From Escherichia coli (lineage in GTDB: Bacteria; Pseudomonadota; Gammaproteobacteria; Enterobacterales; Enterobacteriaceae), in assembly GCF_011045215.1 (NCBI RefSeq), contig NZ_CP049201.1: a stretch of 64,000 bases of DNA; one strand, given 5' to 3'. Under the pieces are notes generated by a model. It saw nothing but the letters and a program-made list of their open reading frames with translations, ran no database searches and was not told the DNA's origin. Numbering within the stretch: the first letter of the stretch is position 1; every line of letters starts with the position of its first letter. Made by a program: the position numbers and the translations under genes. Positions 1,805 to 39,707 of this stretch are shown one piece after another.

Positions 1805-3400
<1,596 letters not shown>

Positions 3401-35233: not shown

Positions 35234-35635
35234 GTGGCAAAAGTTTTTACACAAGAAGAGCGGGAAAAAATTAAAGGGCAGGTGGTGGAACTCGTGCGCC
35301 AGAGCGGTCGTGAGACGTTACGGCAACTGGAAGCTAAAACAGGTGCGACTAGATATCTGATGAGCGTTCTTGCCAGAGAGCTGGTAGCCAGTGGCGATGT
35401 ATACAACTCCGGCTACGGGTTATTCCCGTCTGAACAGGCGCGTAAGGACTGGCAAAACGCCCGCAAAAAACTATCGAGGGCAAAGGTGAAGAAAACAGCT
35501 GTGGTTGATCCGGACCTTATCTGGTCGTTACCTGATGGAGAAATACGTCGCTACGACAGTCGCCTAAACATAATCTGTCGCGAGTGCCGGATGAGTGAAG
35601 TTATGCAGCGCATACTGGCATTTTATCAGGGATAA
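35234..35635 (+). CDS. hypothetical phage protein
   Basis: 133-aa ORF with GTG start preceded by AAGGGGGA RBS; follows the O-like gene. Confidence 0.65.
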   Translation: MAKVFTQEEREKIKGQVVELVRQSGRETLRQLEAKTGATRYLMSVLARELVASGDVYNSGYGLFPSEQARKDWQNARKKLSRAKVKKTAVVDPDLIWSLPDGEIRRYDSRLNIICRECRMSEVMQRILAFYQG

Positions 35636-35831
35636 TGTTAGGTATTTTAGACGTTACTAGATTAAAAAGCATTAGTTCAGGAGTGAATTGACATTCTCAT
35701 TTTTCATGGCACAGGGTAGATCTGGCGTGGTTGTCCGCTTTGTGCCAGAAGCGGACATAGCAGGTGCCAGATGCATTTGTTATTCTTCATTGAATTGAGC
35801 AGTATCCTTAACAGGAACTCTGAATACATAA

Positions 35832-36470
35832 ATGAAGATGAAAAACATGTCTGAAGTGTTGACCCAAGAAAAGCTTATTTTTGTTGCCCAGAGACTAAAG
35901 GCCCTCGCGCAGTCAGGCCTGACCTATTCAAAAGACGTCTTTGACAAGGAACGCTATGAAGCCTTGCGTGAAATTGCCGCTGGACTGCTGAGTTCGCAGT
36001 TTGATATTAGCCGCAATGATTTGTTTCATGTATCGGAAACGGGTTACGCGACGCCCAAAACAGATGTGCGTGCGTTTATCCTGCGTAATAATCGTATTCT
36101 GATGGTGAAAGAGGCTGCAGATGGATTATGGAGTCTTCCTGGCGGATGGGCAGATGTTGGAGATACACCTTCTGAAGCTGTGCGTCGAGAGGTCGAAGAA
36201 GAAACCGGATTAAAAGTCAGAGTGACTAAACTATTGGGAGTTTGGGATCGTAATCTTCACGGCCATCCGCCTTTACCCTGGCATGTTTACAAGCTGATTT
36301 TTCTCTGTGAAGAAGTAGGTGGCAGCCTGTCAATCAGCCATGAGTCACTCGATGCTGATTTTTTTGATGTCAACGACCTGCCTGAATTGTCGCTTTCAAG
36401 AATTGTGCCTGAGCAGATTGCTGTCAGCCTGAGAGTAGCGAAAGGTGATGAAAAAACATGGTTTGATTAA
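35832..36470 (+). CDS. Nudix hydrolase with N-terminal extension domain
   Basis: 212 aa; Nudix-box core GGWADVGDTPSEAVRREVEEETGL. Confidence 0.85.
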   Translation: MKMKNMSEVLTQEKLIFVAQRLKALAQSGLTYSKDVFDKERYEALREIAAGLLSSQFDISRNDLFHVSETGYATPKTDVRAFILRNNRILMVKEAADGLWSLPGGWADVGDTPSEAVRREVEEETGLKVRVTKLLGVWDRNLHGHPPLPWHVYKLIFLCEEVGGSLSISHESLDADFFDVNDLPELSLSRIVPEQIAVSLRVAKGDEKTWFD

Positions 36471-36493
36471 CTTTCTTCTGCAACCATTAAGGA

Positions 36494-37138
36494 ATGGCAA
36501 TGATATTCAACGCTAAGGGTTTTTTATTCGATATGGACGGTACGCTGGTTGATTCAACAGCCGTAGTGGAAAACGTCTGGAGAGATTTTTGTGCAGAATA
36601 CGGTCTTGATTCTCAGGCTGTGATTGCTTACGCACACGGGCGGCAAACGATTGATACACTAACGCATTTTATTGGTGCAGGTGAGAAAACCAATAAAATC
36701 GCGGCCTCACTCGAAGAGGTTGAAATCAACACGACAGAAGGCGTTACTGAAGTAAAAGGGGCCGCTGCACTCTTATCAAAACTGCCACCGGATAGCTGGG
36801 CACTTGTCACTTCTGCAGGCAGAATGCTTGCCGAAAACAGGATGAAAGCGGCTAATCTCCCCTTACCCAGAGTAATGGTGTGTGCAGAAGATGTAATGAC
36901 GGGAAAACCAAGTCCCGAGGGTTACATCAAAGCAGCTTTGGCTTTGGGCCTTGAGCCTGGTGAATGCGTGGTATTTGAGGATGCATCTGCGGGTATAAAA
37001 GCAGGGCTGGCAAGTGGAGCTTCGGTAATAGCTGTTCAGCCTGACGCTCTGGGATCATCTGAAGCCCATGCCGTCAGCGAACTGTCTGACATTATGGTCA
37101 AGATTTCCGGAGAACGTTTCAATATCATCTGTGGTTAA
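36494..37138 (+). CDS. HAD-superfamily phosphatase (beta-phosphoglucomutase-like subfamily)
   Basis: 214 aa; motif I FDMDGTLVDS, motif III lysine region and downstream acidic motif (EDASAG); 24 bp after the Nudix gene. Confidence 0.85.
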   Translation: MAMIFNAKGFLFDMDGTLVDSTAVVENVWRDFCAEYGLDSQAVIAYAHGRQTIDTLTHFIGAGEKTNKIAASLEEVEINTTEGVTEVKGAAALLSKLPPDSWALVTSAGRMLAENRMKAANLPLPRVMVCAEDVMTGKPSPEGYIKAALALGLEPGECVVFEDASAGIKAGLASGASVIAVQPDALGSSEAHAVSELSDIMVKISGERFNIICG

Positions 37139-37386
37139 TCACGTTACACAATACGCATCAATGGACGCTGAGTAGTTCGCGAGTTTTAAACTTCCAACGT
37201 CCGCTTTTCGCTCAAAGCGGACTAGAAGGTTAGCTTGTATCGGACTTTGCGTATTAAATGACTAGTGGTTGAGCCCCATTTCCACAGAAAAAATCAGAGA
37301 AACTATACCCAATAGTTGTATTGAATCACTGACGAGACAGCCTCATATTCATCAGGACTGGTGTACGTCCAATACAGGAGGTTGTG

Positions 37387-37476
37387 GTGCTGGTTCTCAA
37401 ATGTGCGCTGGCTATTACGGCTGTAATGGCGATTTATTGTCTTGCTATTGTTCTTATGGATCGCCTTTCTGACTGA
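37387..37476 (+). CDS. candidate small hydrophobic membrane peptide (about 29 aa), possible type I toxin
   Basis: consensus AGGAGG at 37376-37381, 5 nt before GTG; encodes (M)LVLKCALAITAVMAIYCLAIVLMDRLSD, one TM helix with charged tail; a different frame of the same region gives the 67-aa Cys/Gly-rich ORF in the track. Confidence 0.3.
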   Translation: MLVLKCALAITAVMAIYCLAIVLMDRLSD

Positions 37477-37687
37477 TTTCATATTGGCGAGGTAACGGTA
37501 GTTAAGTAGAATGGCTGCGGGTGCTTGAGGCTATCTGCCTCGGGCATGAACACCAACGGCAGATAGAGAAAAGCCCCAGTTAACATTACGCGTCCTGCAA
37601 GACGCTTAACATTAATCTGAGGCCAATTTCATGCTAGACACATGTAGGTTAGCCTCTTACGTGCCGAAAGGCAAGGAGAAGCAGGCT

Positions 37688-37843
37688 ATGAAGCAGCAAA
37701 AGGCGATGTTAATCGCCCTGATCGTCATCTGTTTAACCGTCATAGTGACGGCACTGGTAACGAGGAAAGACCTCTGCGAGGTACGAATCCGAACCGGCCA
37801 GACGGAGGTCGCTGTCTTCACAGCTTACGAACCTGAGGAGTAA
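37688..37843 (+). CDS. hok: Hok/Gef-family type I toxin
   Basis: 51 aa MKQQKAMLIALIVICLTVIVTALVTRKDLCEVRIRTGQTEVAVFTAYEPEE, typical Hok; in-frame upstream ATG at 37631 could act as a mok-like leader. Confidence 0.88.
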   Translation: MKQQKAMLIALIVICLTVIVTALVTRKDLCEVRIRTGQTEVAVFTAYEPEE

Positions 37844-37911
37844 GAGACCCGGCGAGGGATAAATCCCTCGCCACCTCTGATGTGGCAGGCATCCTCAACG
37901 CACCCGCACTT

Positions 37912-37940
37912 AACCCGCTTCGGCGGGTTTTTGTTTTTAT
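37912..37940 (+). terminator. rho-independent terminator of hok transcript
   Basis: stem cccgc/gcggg with ttcg loop followed by tttttgttttt. Confidence 0.75.
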
Positions 37941-38059
37941 TTTCAACGCGTTTGAAGTTCTGGACGGTGCCGGAATAGAATCAAAAATACTTAAGTAGCG
38001 CGCAGGGATAAGAGGGATGGTCCCTTAAAGGGGAGAGCTAATTATCCGGAAGGATTCTG

Positions 38060-38311
38060 ATGATGAACATCGAAGAACTGCGTAAAATTTTTTGTGAAGA
38101 TGGCCTCTATGCTGTGTGCGTTGAAAATGGAAACATTGTTAGTCATTACCGCATTCTGTGTTTGCGAAAGAATGGGGCTGCGTTAATTAATTTTATGGAT
38201 GCTCGGGTCACGGACGGATTTATCTTGCGCGAAGGTGAGTTTGTCACTTCATTACAGGCACTGAAAGAGATCGGAATAAAAGCAGGCTTTTCAGCTTTTG
38301 CAGAAGAATAA
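38060..38311 (+). CDS. small phage protein in the Rem position (83 aa)
   Basis: 83-aa ORF between hok and the DUF968 gene, same order as hokD-rem-ydfU in Qin. Confidence 0.6.
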   Translation: MMNIEELRKIFCEDGLYAVCVENGNIVSHYRILCLRKNGAALINFMDARVTDGFILREGEFVTSLQALKEIGIKAGFSAFAEE

Positions 38312-38377
38312 ACTCATCTACAATCTTGCGCGGGGCTGAACTCCCGCTGAGTAACACCGTGCCACCGGAGAAAACCG

Positions 38378-38656
38378 ATGGCACGCAACGTAAAATATTA
38401 CAATTCTGATAATTCGCCCGTTCTTGCCTGCACGCACGAGCGGTATTCTCACGCATTCAAGTCTGAATGGTTCCAGCACCCTCCATGCACTGAAGAGCAG
38501 GCTGAATGGATAATTCAGTGTTACCGCAGGCGCGGATACGAGGTTAAGAAAGCCCTTAGTCTCGACTACCGTCACTGGATAATCTCAGTCAGATTGCCTT
38601 ACTCCGAACGCCCACCGCGTCCGTCCCGTACATTCCAGCAACGCATCTGGAGGTAA
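38378..38656 (+). CDS. hypothetical phage protein
   Basis: 92-aa ORF abutting the start of the DUF968 gene. Confidence 0.55.
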   Translation: MARNVKYYNSDNSPVLACTHERYSHAFKSEWFQHPPCTEEQAEWIIQCYRRRGYEVKKALSLDYRHWIISVRLPYSERPPRPSRTFQQRIWR

Positions 38657-38657
38657 C

Positions 38658-39707
38658 GTGCGGGTATTACTTCGACCTGTTCTGGTACCGGAACTCGGGC
38701 TGGTGGTCGTTAAGCCGGGCCGTGAATCCATGCCGGTATTCCACAATACCCGGGTACTGGTGGAGCCGGAACCGAAAAGCATGCGTAATCTGCCGTCCGG
38801 GATCGTTCCTGCCGTTCGCCAGCCGCTGGTGGAAGACAAAACATTGCTGCCGTTTTTCAGTAATGCACGGGTAATTCGTGCTGCTGGTGGTGCTGGTGCA
38901 TTGTCTGACTGGCTGTTGCGCCATATTAAATCCTGCCAGTGGCCACACGGCGATTATCATCACAGCGAAACCGTTATTCACCGTTATGGTACCGGCGCAA
39001 TGGTGTTGTGCTGGCACTGCGACAACCAGCTGCGTGACCAGACATCCGAATCACTCGAGCAACTTGCTCATCAAAACCTGTCAGCATGGATGATTGACGT
39101 CATCGGTCACGCAATAAGCGGTACGCAGGAGCGTGAATTATCTCTGGCTGAATTATCCTGGTGGGCGGTCCGCAATCAGGTGGCGGACGCGCTACCGGAA
39201 GCGGTATTACGTCGTTCGCTGGGGTTGCGTGCGGAAAAAATCCGCTCCATGTACCGTGAAAGCGACATCGTACCGGGAGAGCAGACCGCCACCAGCATAC
39301 TGAAACAGCGCACAAAAAATCTTGCGCCGCTGCCTCACGCCCACCAGCAACAGAACCCACCACAGGAAAAGACGGTGGTCAGCATTGCCGTTGATCCTGA
39401 GTCTCCGGAATCTTTCATGAAACGACCTAAACGTCGCCGCTGGGTTAATGAAAAGTACACGCGCTGGGTTAAGACACAGCCGTGTGCATGTTGTGGAAAG
39501 CCCGCTGATGATCCCCACCACCTGATAGGCCACGGTCAGGGGGGAATGGGTACAAAAGCGCATGACCTCTTTGTGTTGCCTTTGTGCAGAAAGCATCACG
39601 ACGAGCTGCATGCGGATACCGTGGCATTTGAAGAGAAGTATGGCTCCCAGCTGGAGCTGATATTTCGTTTTATCGATCGTGCGCTGGCAATTGGCGTGCT
39701 GGCCTGA
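38658..39707 (+). CDS. ydfU: YdfU-like DUF968 protein with C-terminal HNH-like zinc motif
   Basis: 349 aa; C-terminal CACCGK...HHLIGHGQGG...CRKHHDELH; immediately upstream of Q as in Qin. Confidence 0.8.
   Translation: MRVLLRPVLVPELGLVVVKPGRESMPVFHNTRVLVEPEPKSMRNLPSGIVPAVRQPLVEDKTLLPFFSNARVIRAAGGAGALSDWLLRHIKSCQWPHGDYHHSETVIHRYGTGAMVLCWHCDNQLRDQTSESLEQLAHQNLSAWMIDVIGHAISGTQERELSLAELSWWAVRNQVADALPEAVLRRSLGLRAEKIRSMYRESDIVPGEQTATSILKQRTKNLAPLPHAHQQQNPPQEKTVVSIAVDPESPESFMKRPKRRRWVNEKYTRWVKTQPCACCGKPADDPHHLIGHGQGGMGTKAHDLFVLPLCRKHHDELHADTVAFEEKYGSQLELIFRFIDRALAIGVLA

What the first reader, a model, noticed from the sequence alone, without database searches (positions are those of the whole stretch)
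37356..37476. Possible unannotated small hydrophobic peptide with consensus Shine-Dalgarno upstream of hok
A perfect AGGAGG sits 5 nt before a GTG that opens a 29-codon frame encoding one TM helix with a short charged tail (LVLKCALAITAVMAIYCLAIVLMDRLSD). A plausible sigma70 promoter (TTGAAT, 17 bp, CATATT) lies about 40 bp upstream. The composition resembles type I toxins and small phage membrane peptides, and it lies next to a hok locus. The frame is not in the ORF track; the track instead shows a 67-aa Cys/Gly-rich ORF in another frame of the same DNA.
Basis: seen in the sequence. Interest (0 to 1): 0.55.

Follow-up and report, generated by a model that had tools for sequence, protein, structure and literature searches.

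The report
Conserved 29-residue prophage membrane peptide gene
The short frame next to the hok toxin gene is very likely a real gene for a 29-residue membrane-spanning peptide, carried by about a third of complete E. coli genomes and the Shigella virulence plasmid, left out of RefSeq, and of unknown function.

Summary
AGGAGG (37376-37381) lies 5 nt before GTG 37387, which opens a 29-codon frame ending at TGA 37474-37476, 8 nt before the hokD promoter.

Evidence that the frame is coding:
- All alleles keep the Shine-Dalgarno site.
- Starts are GTG or ATG, and stops are TGA or TAA, at the same positions.
- The three length variants among nine compared alleles are all in frame (+3, +6 and +15 nt); one metagenome contig (L147) carries a 1-nt insertion.
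- Pairwise pN/pS is mostly 0.1-0.5 in this frame only.
- The 67-aa frame and the antisense frame are not conserved.

A published re-analysis of retapamulin ribosome profiling lists the BL21 allele with a weak initiation signal (cluster Escherichia_98807, dN/dS 0.46). The ORF's existence is therefore already catalogued.

TTGAxx-17-CATATT is kept in 35 of 44 distinct upstream sequences, some with unrelated spacers. It is absent or broken in the rest, and no start site was mapped there in Shigella.

Divergent alleles also sit directly upstream of hok, but about 12% of copies lack hok.

I found no antisense RNA, no structured mRNA and no match to any known family. The type I toxin reading stays a resemblance only.

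Verdict: a real but uncharacterised prophage microprotein of moderate interest.

The parts
37199..37222 (.). Perfect 9-bp stem hairpin (GTCCGCTTT-TCGCTC-AAAGCGGAC) at the left edge of the conserved about 300-bp module. Variable cargo genes lie to its left.
   Evidence: Inverted repeat I2. The left end of similarity falls at 37190-37209 in 99 of 128 related loci. Alignments.
37301..37317 (.). 17-bp palindrome AACTAT-N5-ATAGTT, 3 nt upstream of the -35 hexamer. It may be a protein-binding site; function unknown.
   Evidence: Unique perfect match in the window, and near-matches are not above chance. Mostly conserved in E. coli copies. Degraded in pWR100 and absent in HannyBb.
37321..37326 (+). 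Putative -35 hexamer TTGAAT of the peptide gene's own sigma-70 promoter.
   Evidence: TTGAxx lies exactly 17 nt upstream of CATATT in 35 of 44 distinct upstream sequences, including alleles with unrelated spacers. It is replaced by TCTCAT or ATGCGA in 5.
37344..37349 (+). Putative -10 hexamer CATATT. The predicted transcription start is near 37356.
   Evidence: Nearly invariant across alleles. No experimental start site exists for it: none was mapped at the equivalent pWR100 position.
37376..37381 (+). Shine-Dalgarno sequence AGGAGG, 5 nt before the start codon.
   Evidence: A GGAG(G) core or near variant (GGGGG, TGAGG) is kept 4-6 nt before the start in all alleles examined, including divergent ones.
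37387..37476 (+). Small ORF of 29 codons plus TGA: MLVLKCALAITAVMAIYCLAIVLMDRLSD. One transmembrane helix with a short charged tail.
   Evidence: Frame-specific purifying selection. ATG replaces GTG in pWR100. In-frame +3, +6 and +15 nt length variants and a TAA stop at the same place. Frame end conserved in 80 of 81 unique copies. Helix over residues 2-29 of the 30-residue model, pLDDT 92.6. Kyte-Doolittle 2.58 over 19 residues. Ribo-RET signal for the BL21 allele.
37484..37512 (+). hokD promoter (TTGGCG, 17 nt, TAGAAT). It begins 8 nt after the small ORF's stop codon.
   Evidence: The only promoter-like site reported by the scan. It lies just upstream of the hok mRNA 5' end, which aligns to position 1 of the Rfam model.
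37519..37693 (+). hok mRNA leader / sok region.
   Evidence: Rfam RF01794, 115.3 bits, E = 1.2e-26, full-length match.
37688..37843 (+). hokD toxin CDS. The overlapping mok-like frame starts at 37631.
   Evidence: RefSeq annotation of the 99.8%-identical locus L001. ORF list.
37912..37939 (+). Intrinsic terminator after hok. It is the first strong terminator downstream of the small ORF.
   Evidence: The only other plus-strand candidate is a weak hairpin inside the ORF itself, at 37411-37430 with 3 GC pairs.

Best explanation
Positions 37387-37476 are a genuine, translated gene for a 29-residue single-helix inner-membrane microprotein. It belongs to a compact cassette: a putative sigma-70 promoter (TTGAAT-17-CATATT), AGGAGG, a GTG start and a TGA stop. 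The cassette sits in the early-right (ren-to-Q) region of lambdoid prophages, between a variable cargo slot and the hokD/sok locus.

Shown here:
- The frame is conserved as a protein.
- Its start, stop and ribosome-binding site are maintained across alleles down to about 50% amino-acid identity.
- Ribosomes initiate on the BL21 allele at a low level in growing cells.
- The gene persists without hok in some lineages.

Inferred:
- The peptide inserts into the inner membrane as one helix.
- In most copies it is transcribed from its own weak constitutive promoter. In all copies it can also be transcribed by read-through of the phage early-right operon.
- With no terminator before hok, its transcript probably continues into the hok locus.
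- The invariant Tyr-Cys-Leu core and the (D/E)-(R/H) boundary suggest a specific protein partner in the membrane. That would make it a small modulator or exclusion-type accessory protein of the lysogen rather than a generic pore-forming toxin.

My confidence that it is a real translated membrane peptide is about 0.85. My confidence in the non-toxic modulator or accessory role is only about 0.35. The confidence value given for this explanation as a whole (0.72) is dominated by the gene-level claim.
For: Coding signature:
- Minimum-spanning-tree counts over 26 haplotypes give S = 27 and N = 30 against an expected synonymous fraction of 0.30 (p = 0.005). This holds in this frame only; the other five frames are not significant.
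- Pairwise pN/pS is mostly 0.1-0.5 among nine alleles. For window versus L146, Sd = 12 and Nd = 5.
- The start is GTG in E. coli and ATG at the same position in pWR100, with AGGAGG kept.
- Length variants among the nine alleles are +3, +6 and +15 nt, all in frame, and TAA replaces TGA at the same codon.
- The frame's end is fixed in 80 of 81 unique copies.

Translation:
- PMC11188072 Table S4 lists NC_012971.2 1591437-1591524(-) in the retapamulin dataset for BL21. It gives TIS counts 13, RPF counts 38, RPFfraction 0.90 (which I read as coverage), cluster Escherichia_98807 and dN/dS 0.46.
- BL21 carries that allele.

Membrane helix:
-.

Promoter:
- The hexamers and the 17-nt spacing are kept in 35 of 44 distinct upstream sequences, despite unrelated spacers in HannyBb, pWR100, L145, L146 and L147.

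Prevalence:
- 1834 of 5426 complete E. coli genomes carry at least 80% of the promoter-plus-ORF segment.
- The gene is on Shigella/EIEC pINV plasmids: 135 of the 143 matching plasmid records fall in the 60-80% identity band.

Independence from hok:
- 15 of 128 loci, and the whole ..LMERLSD allele lineage, lack hok.
- The pWR100 copy keeps an intact ORF beside a truncated hok leader.
Against: - The translation signal is weak (13 initiation reads). The source paper itself warns that many such signals may be spurious.
- dN/dS of about 0.46 is only moderate constraint.
- No transcription start site was reported at the predicted position (about 91027, minus strand) in the M90T pWR100 dRNA-seq table.
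- The -35 is disrupted in 5 of 44 distinct upstream sequences. The promoter is absent in BL21, L142 and L143.
- The ORF is dispensable. In O157:H7 and ST131 JJ1886, cargo insertions removed all but its last 8-9 codons.
- Nothing tested here bears on what the peptide does. No partner, phenotype or family match was found.
- One metagenome contig (L147) has a 1-nt insertion that shifts the start region out of frame.
Confidence: 0.72

Rival explanations
1. It is a type I toxin: a membrane-damaging peptide held in check by an RNA antitoxin not detected here, or simply by repression of the prophage early operon. It would act as a second killer or abortive-infection peptide beside Hok.
For: It has the size, single hydrophobic helix and short charged tail typical of short type I toxins. 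It sits in a slot rich in toxin-antitoxin cargo: hok/sok next door, RelBE in K-12 and HigBA in L145. Divergent alleles keep their position immediately upstream of hok. The promoter scan I used also missed the known sok promoter, so its negative result is weak.
Against: No antisense promoter was found, and there is no direct or inverted complementarity of 8 nt or more between the conserved upstream segment and the mRNA. No Rfam hit covers the segment. The mRNA fold is no better than shuffles (z = -0.5). A consensus SD at ideal spacing, with no conserved sequestering structure, is unlike most type I toxin mRNAs. Initiating ribosomes are seen on it in growing BL21. The helix has no charged or polar face. 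It occurs in a third of E. coli genomes, often with a constitutive-looking promoter.
Confidence: 0.15
2. It is a cis-acting upstream ORF or leader for hok. Transcripts starting at its promoter, or arriving from the phage early operon, run through the hok promoter. Translation of the small frame would then tune transcription, stability or Sok titration of the 5'-extended hok mRNA, and the peptide itself would be unimportant.
For: The stop codon lies 8 nt before the hok -35, and there is no terminator between the two. The synteny with hok holds in divergent alleles. About 88% of sampled copies are followed by hok.
Against: The amino-acid sequence is under selection, not only the reading frame: the YCL core, the (D/E)-(R/H) boundary and conservative replacements are all kept. 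The gene is retained intact where hok is absent or truncated. Many hok loci work without it (O157:H7, JJ1886, K-12). Different peptide alleles pair with the same Hok protein.
Confidence: 0.07
3. The segment is non-coding regulatory DNA or RNA, such as an upstream element of the hok promoter or a mosaic boundary sequence, and the open frame is incidental.
For: The flanking non-coding 185 nt (37199-37383) is also well conserved among close E. coli copies. Truncated versions in O157:H7 and JJ1886 keep just the last 30-35 nt next to the hok -35, which fits an UP-element role for that end.
Against: Substitutions are codon-structured in one frame only. All length variants among the nine compared alleles are in frame. 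The start and stop codon types change while their positions stay fixed. The 70 nt upstream accumulate about 4 times more changes per site than the ORF once divergent alleles are included: 184 over 70 nt against 57 over 87 nt. There is also a ribosome initiation signal.
Confidence: 0.04
4. The real gene is in another frame. Candidates are the 67-aa Cys/Gly-rich ORF (37269-37472, +) or the antisense 59-aa ORF (37303-37482, -). The antisense frame is the one annotated in phage HannyBb and by RAST in pWR100.
For: Both are open in the window. Annotators have called the antisense frame.
Against: 67-aa frame: S = 8 and N = 47, and its upstream limit differs in almost every allele because of indels. 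Antisense frame: S = 17 and N = 40 (p = 0.27). It has stops in 7 of 26 haplotypes and is truncated in at least 20 of 81 unique copies.
Confidence: 0.02

Closest known systems
Entero67K microprotein cluster Escherichia_98807 (Fesenko et al. 2024, 'The Cryptic Bacterial Microproteome', PMC11188072, Table S4)
   Same: Same gene family. The listed BL21 member, VLVLKCTLAIVAVMAIYCLVIVLMDHLSD, is the allele found in phage HannyBb and BL21 and differs from the window peptide at 4 of 29 residues. Its reported dN/dS of 0.46 matches my estimate of about 0.48.
   Different: That entry is one line in a catalogue of 67,297 clusters. I found no description of its hok synteny, promoter, divergent alleles, pINV copy or function. 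I saw it only in the parts of the supplement that are held as text.
Short type I toxins of enterobacteria (TisB and ZorO at 29 aa, DinQ, ShoB, Ibs, Ldr; Fst-type architecture). Named from my own knowledge, not compared by sequence here.
   Same: About 30 residues, one hydrophobic helix, a short polar tail, and location on mobile or prophage DNA next to another type I system.
   Different: No antitoxin RNA, no long structured 5' UTR and no charged residues along the helix. It has a strong accessible SD, and an initiation signal in growing cells. No sequence family match was found.
Hok/Gef family (Pfam PF01848), the neighbouring gene
   Same: Small inner-membrane peptide with a Cys-containing N-terminal helix, in the same prophage module and syntenic in most copies.
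   Different: No Pfam hit even at E <= 10 and no BLASTP alignment to HokD. At 29 rather than 51 residues, it has no room for a Hok-length C-terminal region. There is no mok-like overlapping frame or sok-like RNA.
Small single-pass inner-membrane proteins of E. coli that modulate larger membrane proteins (AcrZ, CydX, and the Qin prophage protein YnfT; MgtS and KdpF from my own knowledge)
   Same: Size class, a single helix, a conventional SD-led ORF, translation detectable by initiation profiling, and modest purifying selection. AcrZ, CydX and YnfT appear in the same Ribo-seq table.
   Different: No partner is known or predicted. There is no similarity to YnfT. It is prophage-borne and patchily distributed rather than a core gene.

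Membership tests
Translated small protein gene (sORF) by the usual criteria | Open frame conserved among homologues, with excess synonymous change in that frame only | tested here: met
   S = 27 and N = 30 against an expected synonymous fraction of 0.30 (p = 0.005). Pairwise pN/pS is mostly 0.1-0.5. The other five frames are not significant.
Translated small protein gene (sORF) by the usual criteria | Conserved ribosome-binding site and start codon | tested here: met
   A GGAG(G) core or near variant lies 4-6 nt before GTG or ATG in all alleles examined.
Translated small protein gene (sORF) by the usual criteria | Ribosome-profiling initiation peak at the start codon | tested here: met
   From the literature, for the BL21 allele only, and weak: TIS counts 13, RPF counts 38, RPFfraction 0.90 (PMC11188072 Table S4). 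I did not inspect the raw reads.
Translated small protein gene (sORF) by the usual criteria | Peptide detected directly by epitope tag or mass spectrometry | not testable with these tools
   No such data were found. Peptide strings are absent from searchable full texts.
Type I toxin-antitoxin system (toxin component) | Small hydrophobic peptide with one predicted transmembrane helix | tested here: met
   Kyte-Doolittle 2.58 over CALAITAVMAIYCLAIVLM. AlphaFold helix over residues 2-29 of the 30-residue model, pLDDT 92.6.
Type I toxin-antitoxin system (toxin component) | Cognate antisense or partly complementary small RNA antitoxin | tested here: inconclusive
   No minus-strand promoter was found, no complementarity of 8 nt or more to the mRNA, and no Rfam hit over 37199-37500. 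The promoter scan also missed the known sok promoter, so this absence is weak evidence.
Type I toxin-antitoxin system (toxin component) | Toxin mRNA held translationally inert by stable structure or a long 5' UTR | tested here: not met
   The predicted 5' UTR is about 30 nt. The fold energy z-score is -0.5 against shuffles. The small 5' hairpin is not conserved in pWR100. Initiating ribosomes are seen in growing BL21.
Type I toxin-antitoxin system (toxin component) | Growth arrest or membrane damage on expression | not testable with these tools
   Needs an induction experiment.
Hok/Gef family (PF01848) | Match to the HOK_GEF profile or to a Hok protein | tested here: not met
   No Pfam match at E <= 10. 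No BLASTP alignment to HokD at E <= 100.
Prophage moron (autonomous cassette expressed in the lysogen) | Own promoter | tested here: inconclusive
   For: TTGAxx-17-CATATT occurs in 35 of 44 distinct upstream sequences, across unrelated spacers. Against: the hexamers match 8 of 12 consensus positions, below the scan threshold. The -35 is broken in 5 of 44 and the promoter is absent in 4 of 44, including BL21. No start site was mapped at the pWR100 equivalent.
Prophage moron (autonomous cassette expressed in the lysogen) | Own terminator | tested here: not met
   There is no terminator between the stop codon (37476) and the hok promoter or leader. The first strong one is at 37912-37929, after hok.
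Entero67K cluster Escherichia_98807 | Sequence identity with the listed member | tested here: met
   The listed sequence is identical to the BL21 and HannyBb allele and is 86% identical to the window peptide.

The most novel reading that the evidence does not exclude
The peptide and Hok form a conserved two-peptide membrane module of lambdoid prophages. The 29-residue helix would bind Hok or Hok's membrane target and set the threshold for Hok killing, either as a protein-level partner or immunity factor, or as a co-toxin. Its retention on the Shigella virulence plasmid beside a decayed hok would reflect a second, Hok-independent role at the envelope near icsP. That would add a protein component to the textbook RNA-only hok/sok system.
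Probability: 0.12. Interest if true: 0.7.

Novelty: new member of a known kind. Interest (0 to 1): 0.38.

Why it matters
This is a concrete, well-supported example of a conserved microprotein gene that standard annotation omits. RefSeq lacks it in every record I sampled, although about a third of complete E. coli genomes carry it, as do BL21, four sequenced temperate phages and the Shigella/EIEC invasion plasmid.

Its fixed place between a cargo hot spot and hok/sok makes it a cheap experimental target. One could ask whether it changes Hok toxicity, phage exclusion, prophage induction or envelope physiology.

In Shigella the intact copy lies about 200-290 bp upstream of the icsP start site. 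Constructs of the icsP regulatory region that extend that far upstream would therefore carry a translatable gene.

If it proves to be only a weakly expressed accessory peptide, the main value is a corrected annotation.

Tried and rejected
The exact-sequence cluster look-up and a profile search of 1.84 billion representatives replaced it.
- NCBIfam, PHROGs, PADLOC and Pfam gave no meaningful hit. The only hit was a chance ATP-synthase subunit c match at E = 0.07.
- Rfam found nothing over the cassette at E <= 1.
- RNA folding of the mRNA and of both strands of the upstream conserved segment gave z-scores of -0.5, -0.9 and -1.3, which is no structural signal.
- The antitoxin search found no antisense promoter and no complementarity.
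- The 11-nt complementarity between 37335-37345 and the hok 5' end (37526-37536) lies upstream of the predicted start site and is not kept in pWR100, so I treat it as chance.
- The 17-bp palindrome has no second copy in the window, so I found no link to the immunity operators.
- The degenerate pattern scan of 100,044 species genomes recovered only E. albertii and two short MAG contigs (labelled Haemophilus sp. and Candidatus Scatousia) that are probably misbinned E. coli-type sequence. The other 8 hits were chance, as expected.
- Peptide strings are absent from searchable full texts. The supplements of Meydan et al. 2019 are not held.
- The Shigella M90T start-site table has no site for the cassette.
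- K-12 Qin has no remnant, because relE abuts a truncated hokD.
- I found no covariation between peptide alleles and Hok protein alleles.
- There is no similarity to HokD or YnfT.
- The base-composition profile across 35500-39000 is unremarkable.
Full report
**1. What is in the sequence**

The region reads as the first-stage reader said. AGGAGG lies at 37376-37381 and is followed by five bases (TTGTG). GTG at 37387 then opens 29 sense codons, (M)LVLKCALAITAVMAIYCLAIVLMDRLSD, ending at TGA 37474-37476.

TTGAAT (37321-37326) and CATATT (37344-37349) are 17 nt apart. This pair matches 8 of 12 consensus positions, one short of the scan tool's threshold.

Eight bases after the stop codon begins the only promoter the scan reported, TTGGCG-17-TAGAAT (37484-37512). 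It feeds the hok mRNA. The Rfam sok/hok-leader model matches full length at 37519-37693 with 115 bits. hokD is at 37688-37843 and its terminator is at 37912-37929.

The ORF tool lists a 30-codon version starting at GTG 37384. That codon is GTC, GTT or ATC in most relatives, so 37387 is the conserved start.

The arrangement is not a chance pattern. Of 20 AGGAGG sites in the window, six are followed at 4-9 nt by a start codon and an ORF of at least 20 codons. Four of those ORFs are long (232-700 codons), one is a doubtful TTG at 9-nt spacing, and one is this ORF. Fifty shuffles gave no small hydrophobic ORF behind a perfect SD.

**2. Where else it occurs**

- The promoter-plus-ORF segment (37318-37480) is at least 80% covered in 1834 of 5426 complete E. 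coli genomes. No feature was annotated under it in any row sampled.
- It is in four temperate phages: mEp460_ev081, Evi, Tritos and HannyBb. It is unannotated on this strand in all four, and HannyBb's annotators called two antisense ORFs instead.
- A scan of one genome per species found it only in E. albertii, plus two short MAG contigs that are probably misbinned E. coli-type sequence.
- tblastn found a 72%-identical copy on 135 Shigella/EIEC invasion plasmids, including pWR100 of M90T. There it lies about 290 bp upstream of the icsP coding start.
- Exact-sequence look-up shows that some GenBank submitters did call it, as 'hypothetical protein' or 'membrane protein' (for example OSK45992.1, EGI50483.1, APJ77383.1, CDU35968.1; UniRef A0A0M1UIT1). 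The Prokka annotation of pWR100 has it as CDS complement(90908..90997).

**3. Is it coding?**

- Among 128 copies there are 26 haplotypes of the 87-nt frame. A minimum-spanning-tree count gives 27 synonymous and 30 non-synonymous changes, against an expected synonymous fraction of 0.30 (p = 0.005).
- The five other frames show no excess. The 67-aa frame has S = 8 and N = 47. The antisense frame has S = 17 and N = 40, with stops in 7 of 26 haplotypes.
- The end of the 29-codon frame is fixed in 80 of 81 unique copies. The upstream limit of the 67-aa frame differs in nearly every allele, and the antisense frame is cut short in at least 20 of 81.
- The pWR100 copy has ATG exactly where E. coli has GTG, still five bases after AGGAGG. 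I counted 11 synonymous and 9 non-synonymous differences from the window across the frame.
- A profile search of 1.84 billion representative proteins found 18 relatives at E <= 0.001. They include alleles such as MLAALKGFVAILAVVAIYCLVVVLMDRLSD, MLVLVLKGALAIAAVAVIYCLVIVLMDRIFE and MSDDISLAMEGALAVVAVVGVYCLVVFLMDRLGN.
- Their DNA shows in-frame length variants only (+3, +6 and +15 nt). It also shows a TAA stop at the same codon, retained GGAG(G) sites, and many silent differences.
- Pairwise pN/pS over the last 24 codons is mostly 0.1-0.5. For window versus L146, Sd = 12 and Nd = 5, giving 0.15.
- One metagenome contig (L147) has a 1-nt insertion and a decayed hok, and looks like a pseudogene or a sequencing error.
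- Invariant positions across the nine alleles include the central Tyr-Cys-Leu. The tail begins (D/E)-(R/H) in all nine.

**4. Experimental evidence from the literature**

Fesenko et al. ('The Cryptic Bacterial Microproteome', PMC11188072) re-analysed the retapamulin initiation profiling of Meydan et al. 2019. Their Table S4 lists NC_012971.2 1591437-1591524(-) with the sequence VLVLKCTLAIVAVMAIYCLVIVLMDHLSD, from dataset RET and strain BL21. It gives TIS counts 13, TIS fraction 1, RPF counts 38 and RPFfraction 0.90, which I read as coverage. The class is Entero67K, the cluster is Escherichia_98807, and dN/dS is 0.46.

I confirmed that a BL21 genome carries exactly this allele. There it overlaps the 3' end of a DUF977 gene and has no promoter of its own.

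The signal is weak, and the authors caution that low signals can be spurious. It is nevertheless independent of my comparative analysis and agrees with it.

It also means that the ORF's existence and its selection signature are already catalogued. I found no description of its context or function.

**5. The promoter**

In 35 of 44 distinct upstream sequences a TTGAxx hexamer lies exactly 17 nt before CATATT. This includes HannyBb, pWR100, L145, L146 and L147, whose spacer sequences are unrelated to the window's. That pattern is what a functional sigma-70 promoter predicts.

Against it:
- Five sequences have TCTCAT or ATGCGA in place of the -35.
- Four lack the promoter altogether. In these the ORF directly follows a same-strand gene.
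- The M90T dRNA-seq table reports only the icsP start sites (90709 and 90726, minus strand) and nothing near the predicted 91027.

I conclude that most copies probably have a weak promoter of their own. All copies can also be read from the phage early-right operon, since the flanking genes are on the same strand.

No terminator separates the ORF from hok, so its transcripts probably continue into the hok locus. This step is inferred.

**6. Context**

The cassette is the right-hand part of a conserved module of about 300 bp (37199 to about 37495). Its left edge is a perfect 9-bp-stem hairpin and coincides with the end of similarity in 99 of 128 loci.

The genes to the left are variable:
- Here, a probable NUDIX gene (my reading of its Nudix-box motif) plus a HAD hydrolase.
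- Elsewhere, an MFS/GGCT/LysR set, adenosine deaminase with a SIR2-family gene, uncharacterised 1.3-kb genes, HigBA, ORF6N, DUF551, an alpha/beta hydrolase and QueH.

To the right, 113 of 128 copies continue into hok and 15 end at about 37490. The whole ..LMERLSD allele lineage lacks hok.

All four divergent alleles whose contigs extend far enough downstream sit directly upstream of a HOK_GEF gene, and that gene's leader is nearly identical to the window's. The synteny is therefore old, but the peptide has diverged far more than hok. Different peptide alleles pair with the same Hok protein.

In O157:H7 and ST131 JJ1886, cargo insertions removed all but the last 8-9 codons while keeping the hok promoter. 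In K-12, relBE abuts a truncated hokD. The gene is thus optional.

**7. What it is like, and what it is not**

- The peptide is predicted to be a single helix: residues 2-29 of the 30-residue model, pLDDT 92.6. It has a 19-residue hydrophobic core (Kyte-Doolittle 2.58).
- It matches no Pfam, NCBIfam, PHROG or PADLOC family.
- It has no detectable similarity to HokD or to the Qin small protein YnfT.
- For the type I toxin idea, the size and hydrophobicity criterion is met.
- However, I found no antisense promoter, no complementary segment, no Rfam RNA and no stable mRNA structure. The promoter scan also missed the known sok promoter, so the antisense result is inconclusive rather than negative.
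- A consensus SD at ideal spacing on an unstructured leader argues against a potent toxin. So does a constitutive-looking promoter in a third of E. coli genomes.
- The initiating ribosomes seen in growing BL21, and a helix without a polar face, point the same way.
- The conserved Tyr-Cys-Leu core and (D/E)-(R/H) boundary fit a specific membrane-protein partner better. This is inference only.

**8. Verdict**

This is a real small membrane-peptide gene missed by RefSeq annotation.

It is a new, uncharacterised member of a familiar class: prophage-borne single-helix microproteins. A large-scale catalogue already lists it.

| Reading | Confidence |
|---|---|
| Translated membrane peptide | about 0.85 |
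| Non-toxic modulator or accessory role | about 0.35 |
| Type I-like toxin | about 0.15 |
| Cis-acting leader for hok | about 0.07 |
| Incidental non-coding conservation | about 0.04 |
| A gene in another frame | about 0.02 |

Interest is moderate (0.38). It is not surprising in kind, but it is widespread and cleanly delimited. It sits next to the classic hok/sok system and upstream of a Shigella virulence gene, and it is easy to test.

Noticed in passing
window 35832-37138 and the equivalent slot in L002, L003, L005, L006, L140, L141, L142, L143, L145, L149: The slot just left of the conserved module is a cargo hot spot. Here it holds a probable NUDIX gene (my reading of the Nudix-box motif) plus a HAD hydrolase. 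Elsewhere it holds RelBE (K-12), HigBA, SIR2 with adenosine deaminase, QueH, an alpha/beta hydrolase, an MFS/GGCT/LysR set, ORF6N, DUF551 or uncharacterised 1.3-kb genes.
   Followed up: partly
window 37199-37222: A perfect 9-bp-stem hairpin with no U-tract sits exactly where similarity between prophages begins (99 of 128 loci). It could be a recombination boundary or an insulator. The 100 nt after it contain short direct repeats (CGGACT and GACTAG motifs) of unknown meaning.
   Followed up: partly
window 37301-37317: A 17-bp perfect palindrome, AACTAT-N5-ATAGTT, lies 3 nt upstream of the putative -35. It is conserved in most E. coli copies but not in HannyBb, and is degraded in pWR100. There is no second copy in the window. 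It may be an operator for an unknown regulator.
   Followed up: partly
L127 (pWR100, NZ_CP037924.1) 2900-3200, record 90797-91097: The Shigella invasion plasmid carries a lambdoid prophage fragment 200-290 bp upstream of the icsP start site (90709). The fragment consists of the promoter, the intact small ORF with an ATG start, the hok promoter and the first 80 nt or so of the hok leader. After that, AT-rich icsP upstream sequence takes over. Constructs of the icsP regulatory region that reach this far upstream would include a translatable ORF.
   Followed up: partly
L140 2486-2560 (O157:H7) and L141 2495-2545 (JJ1886): In these pathogen lineages, cargo insertions (an alpha/beta hydrolase and QueH) cut into the small ORF. 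Only its last 8-9 codons remain, fused to the hok promoter region. This suggests that about 30-35 nt upstream of the hok -35 is needed for hok, as an UP-like element. RefSeq marks a separate 84-nt pseudo 'hypothetical protein' just upstream in O157:H7.
   Followed up: partly
window 37852-37933: A weak Rfam match to the Salmonella prophage sRNA IsrK (27.4 bits against a gathering score of 50, E = 0.005) covers the hok 3' UTR and terminator. It may reflect only the shared terminator hairpin.
   Followed up: no
window 37335-37345 versus 37526-37536: There is an 11-nt, 91% complementarity between the spacer of the small-ORF promoter and the extreme 5' end of the hok mRNA. It is not conserved in pWR100 and lies upstream of the predicted start site, so it is probably chance.
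   Followed up: partly
L148 2204-2615 (BL21-RIPL): In BL21 the small ORF's start overlaps the 3' end of the DUF977 (ren-region) gene, with no cargo and no promoter of its own. Even so, this is the allele with the published initiation signal, which implies some transcription of the cryptic prophage's early-right region in growing cells.
   Followed up: partly
L143 2985-3030: One divergent allele has a 34-nt insertion between the small ORF's stop codon and the hok -35. The insertion contains a perfect 22-nt palindrome (CGATATGGGAATTCCCATATCG).
   Followed up: no
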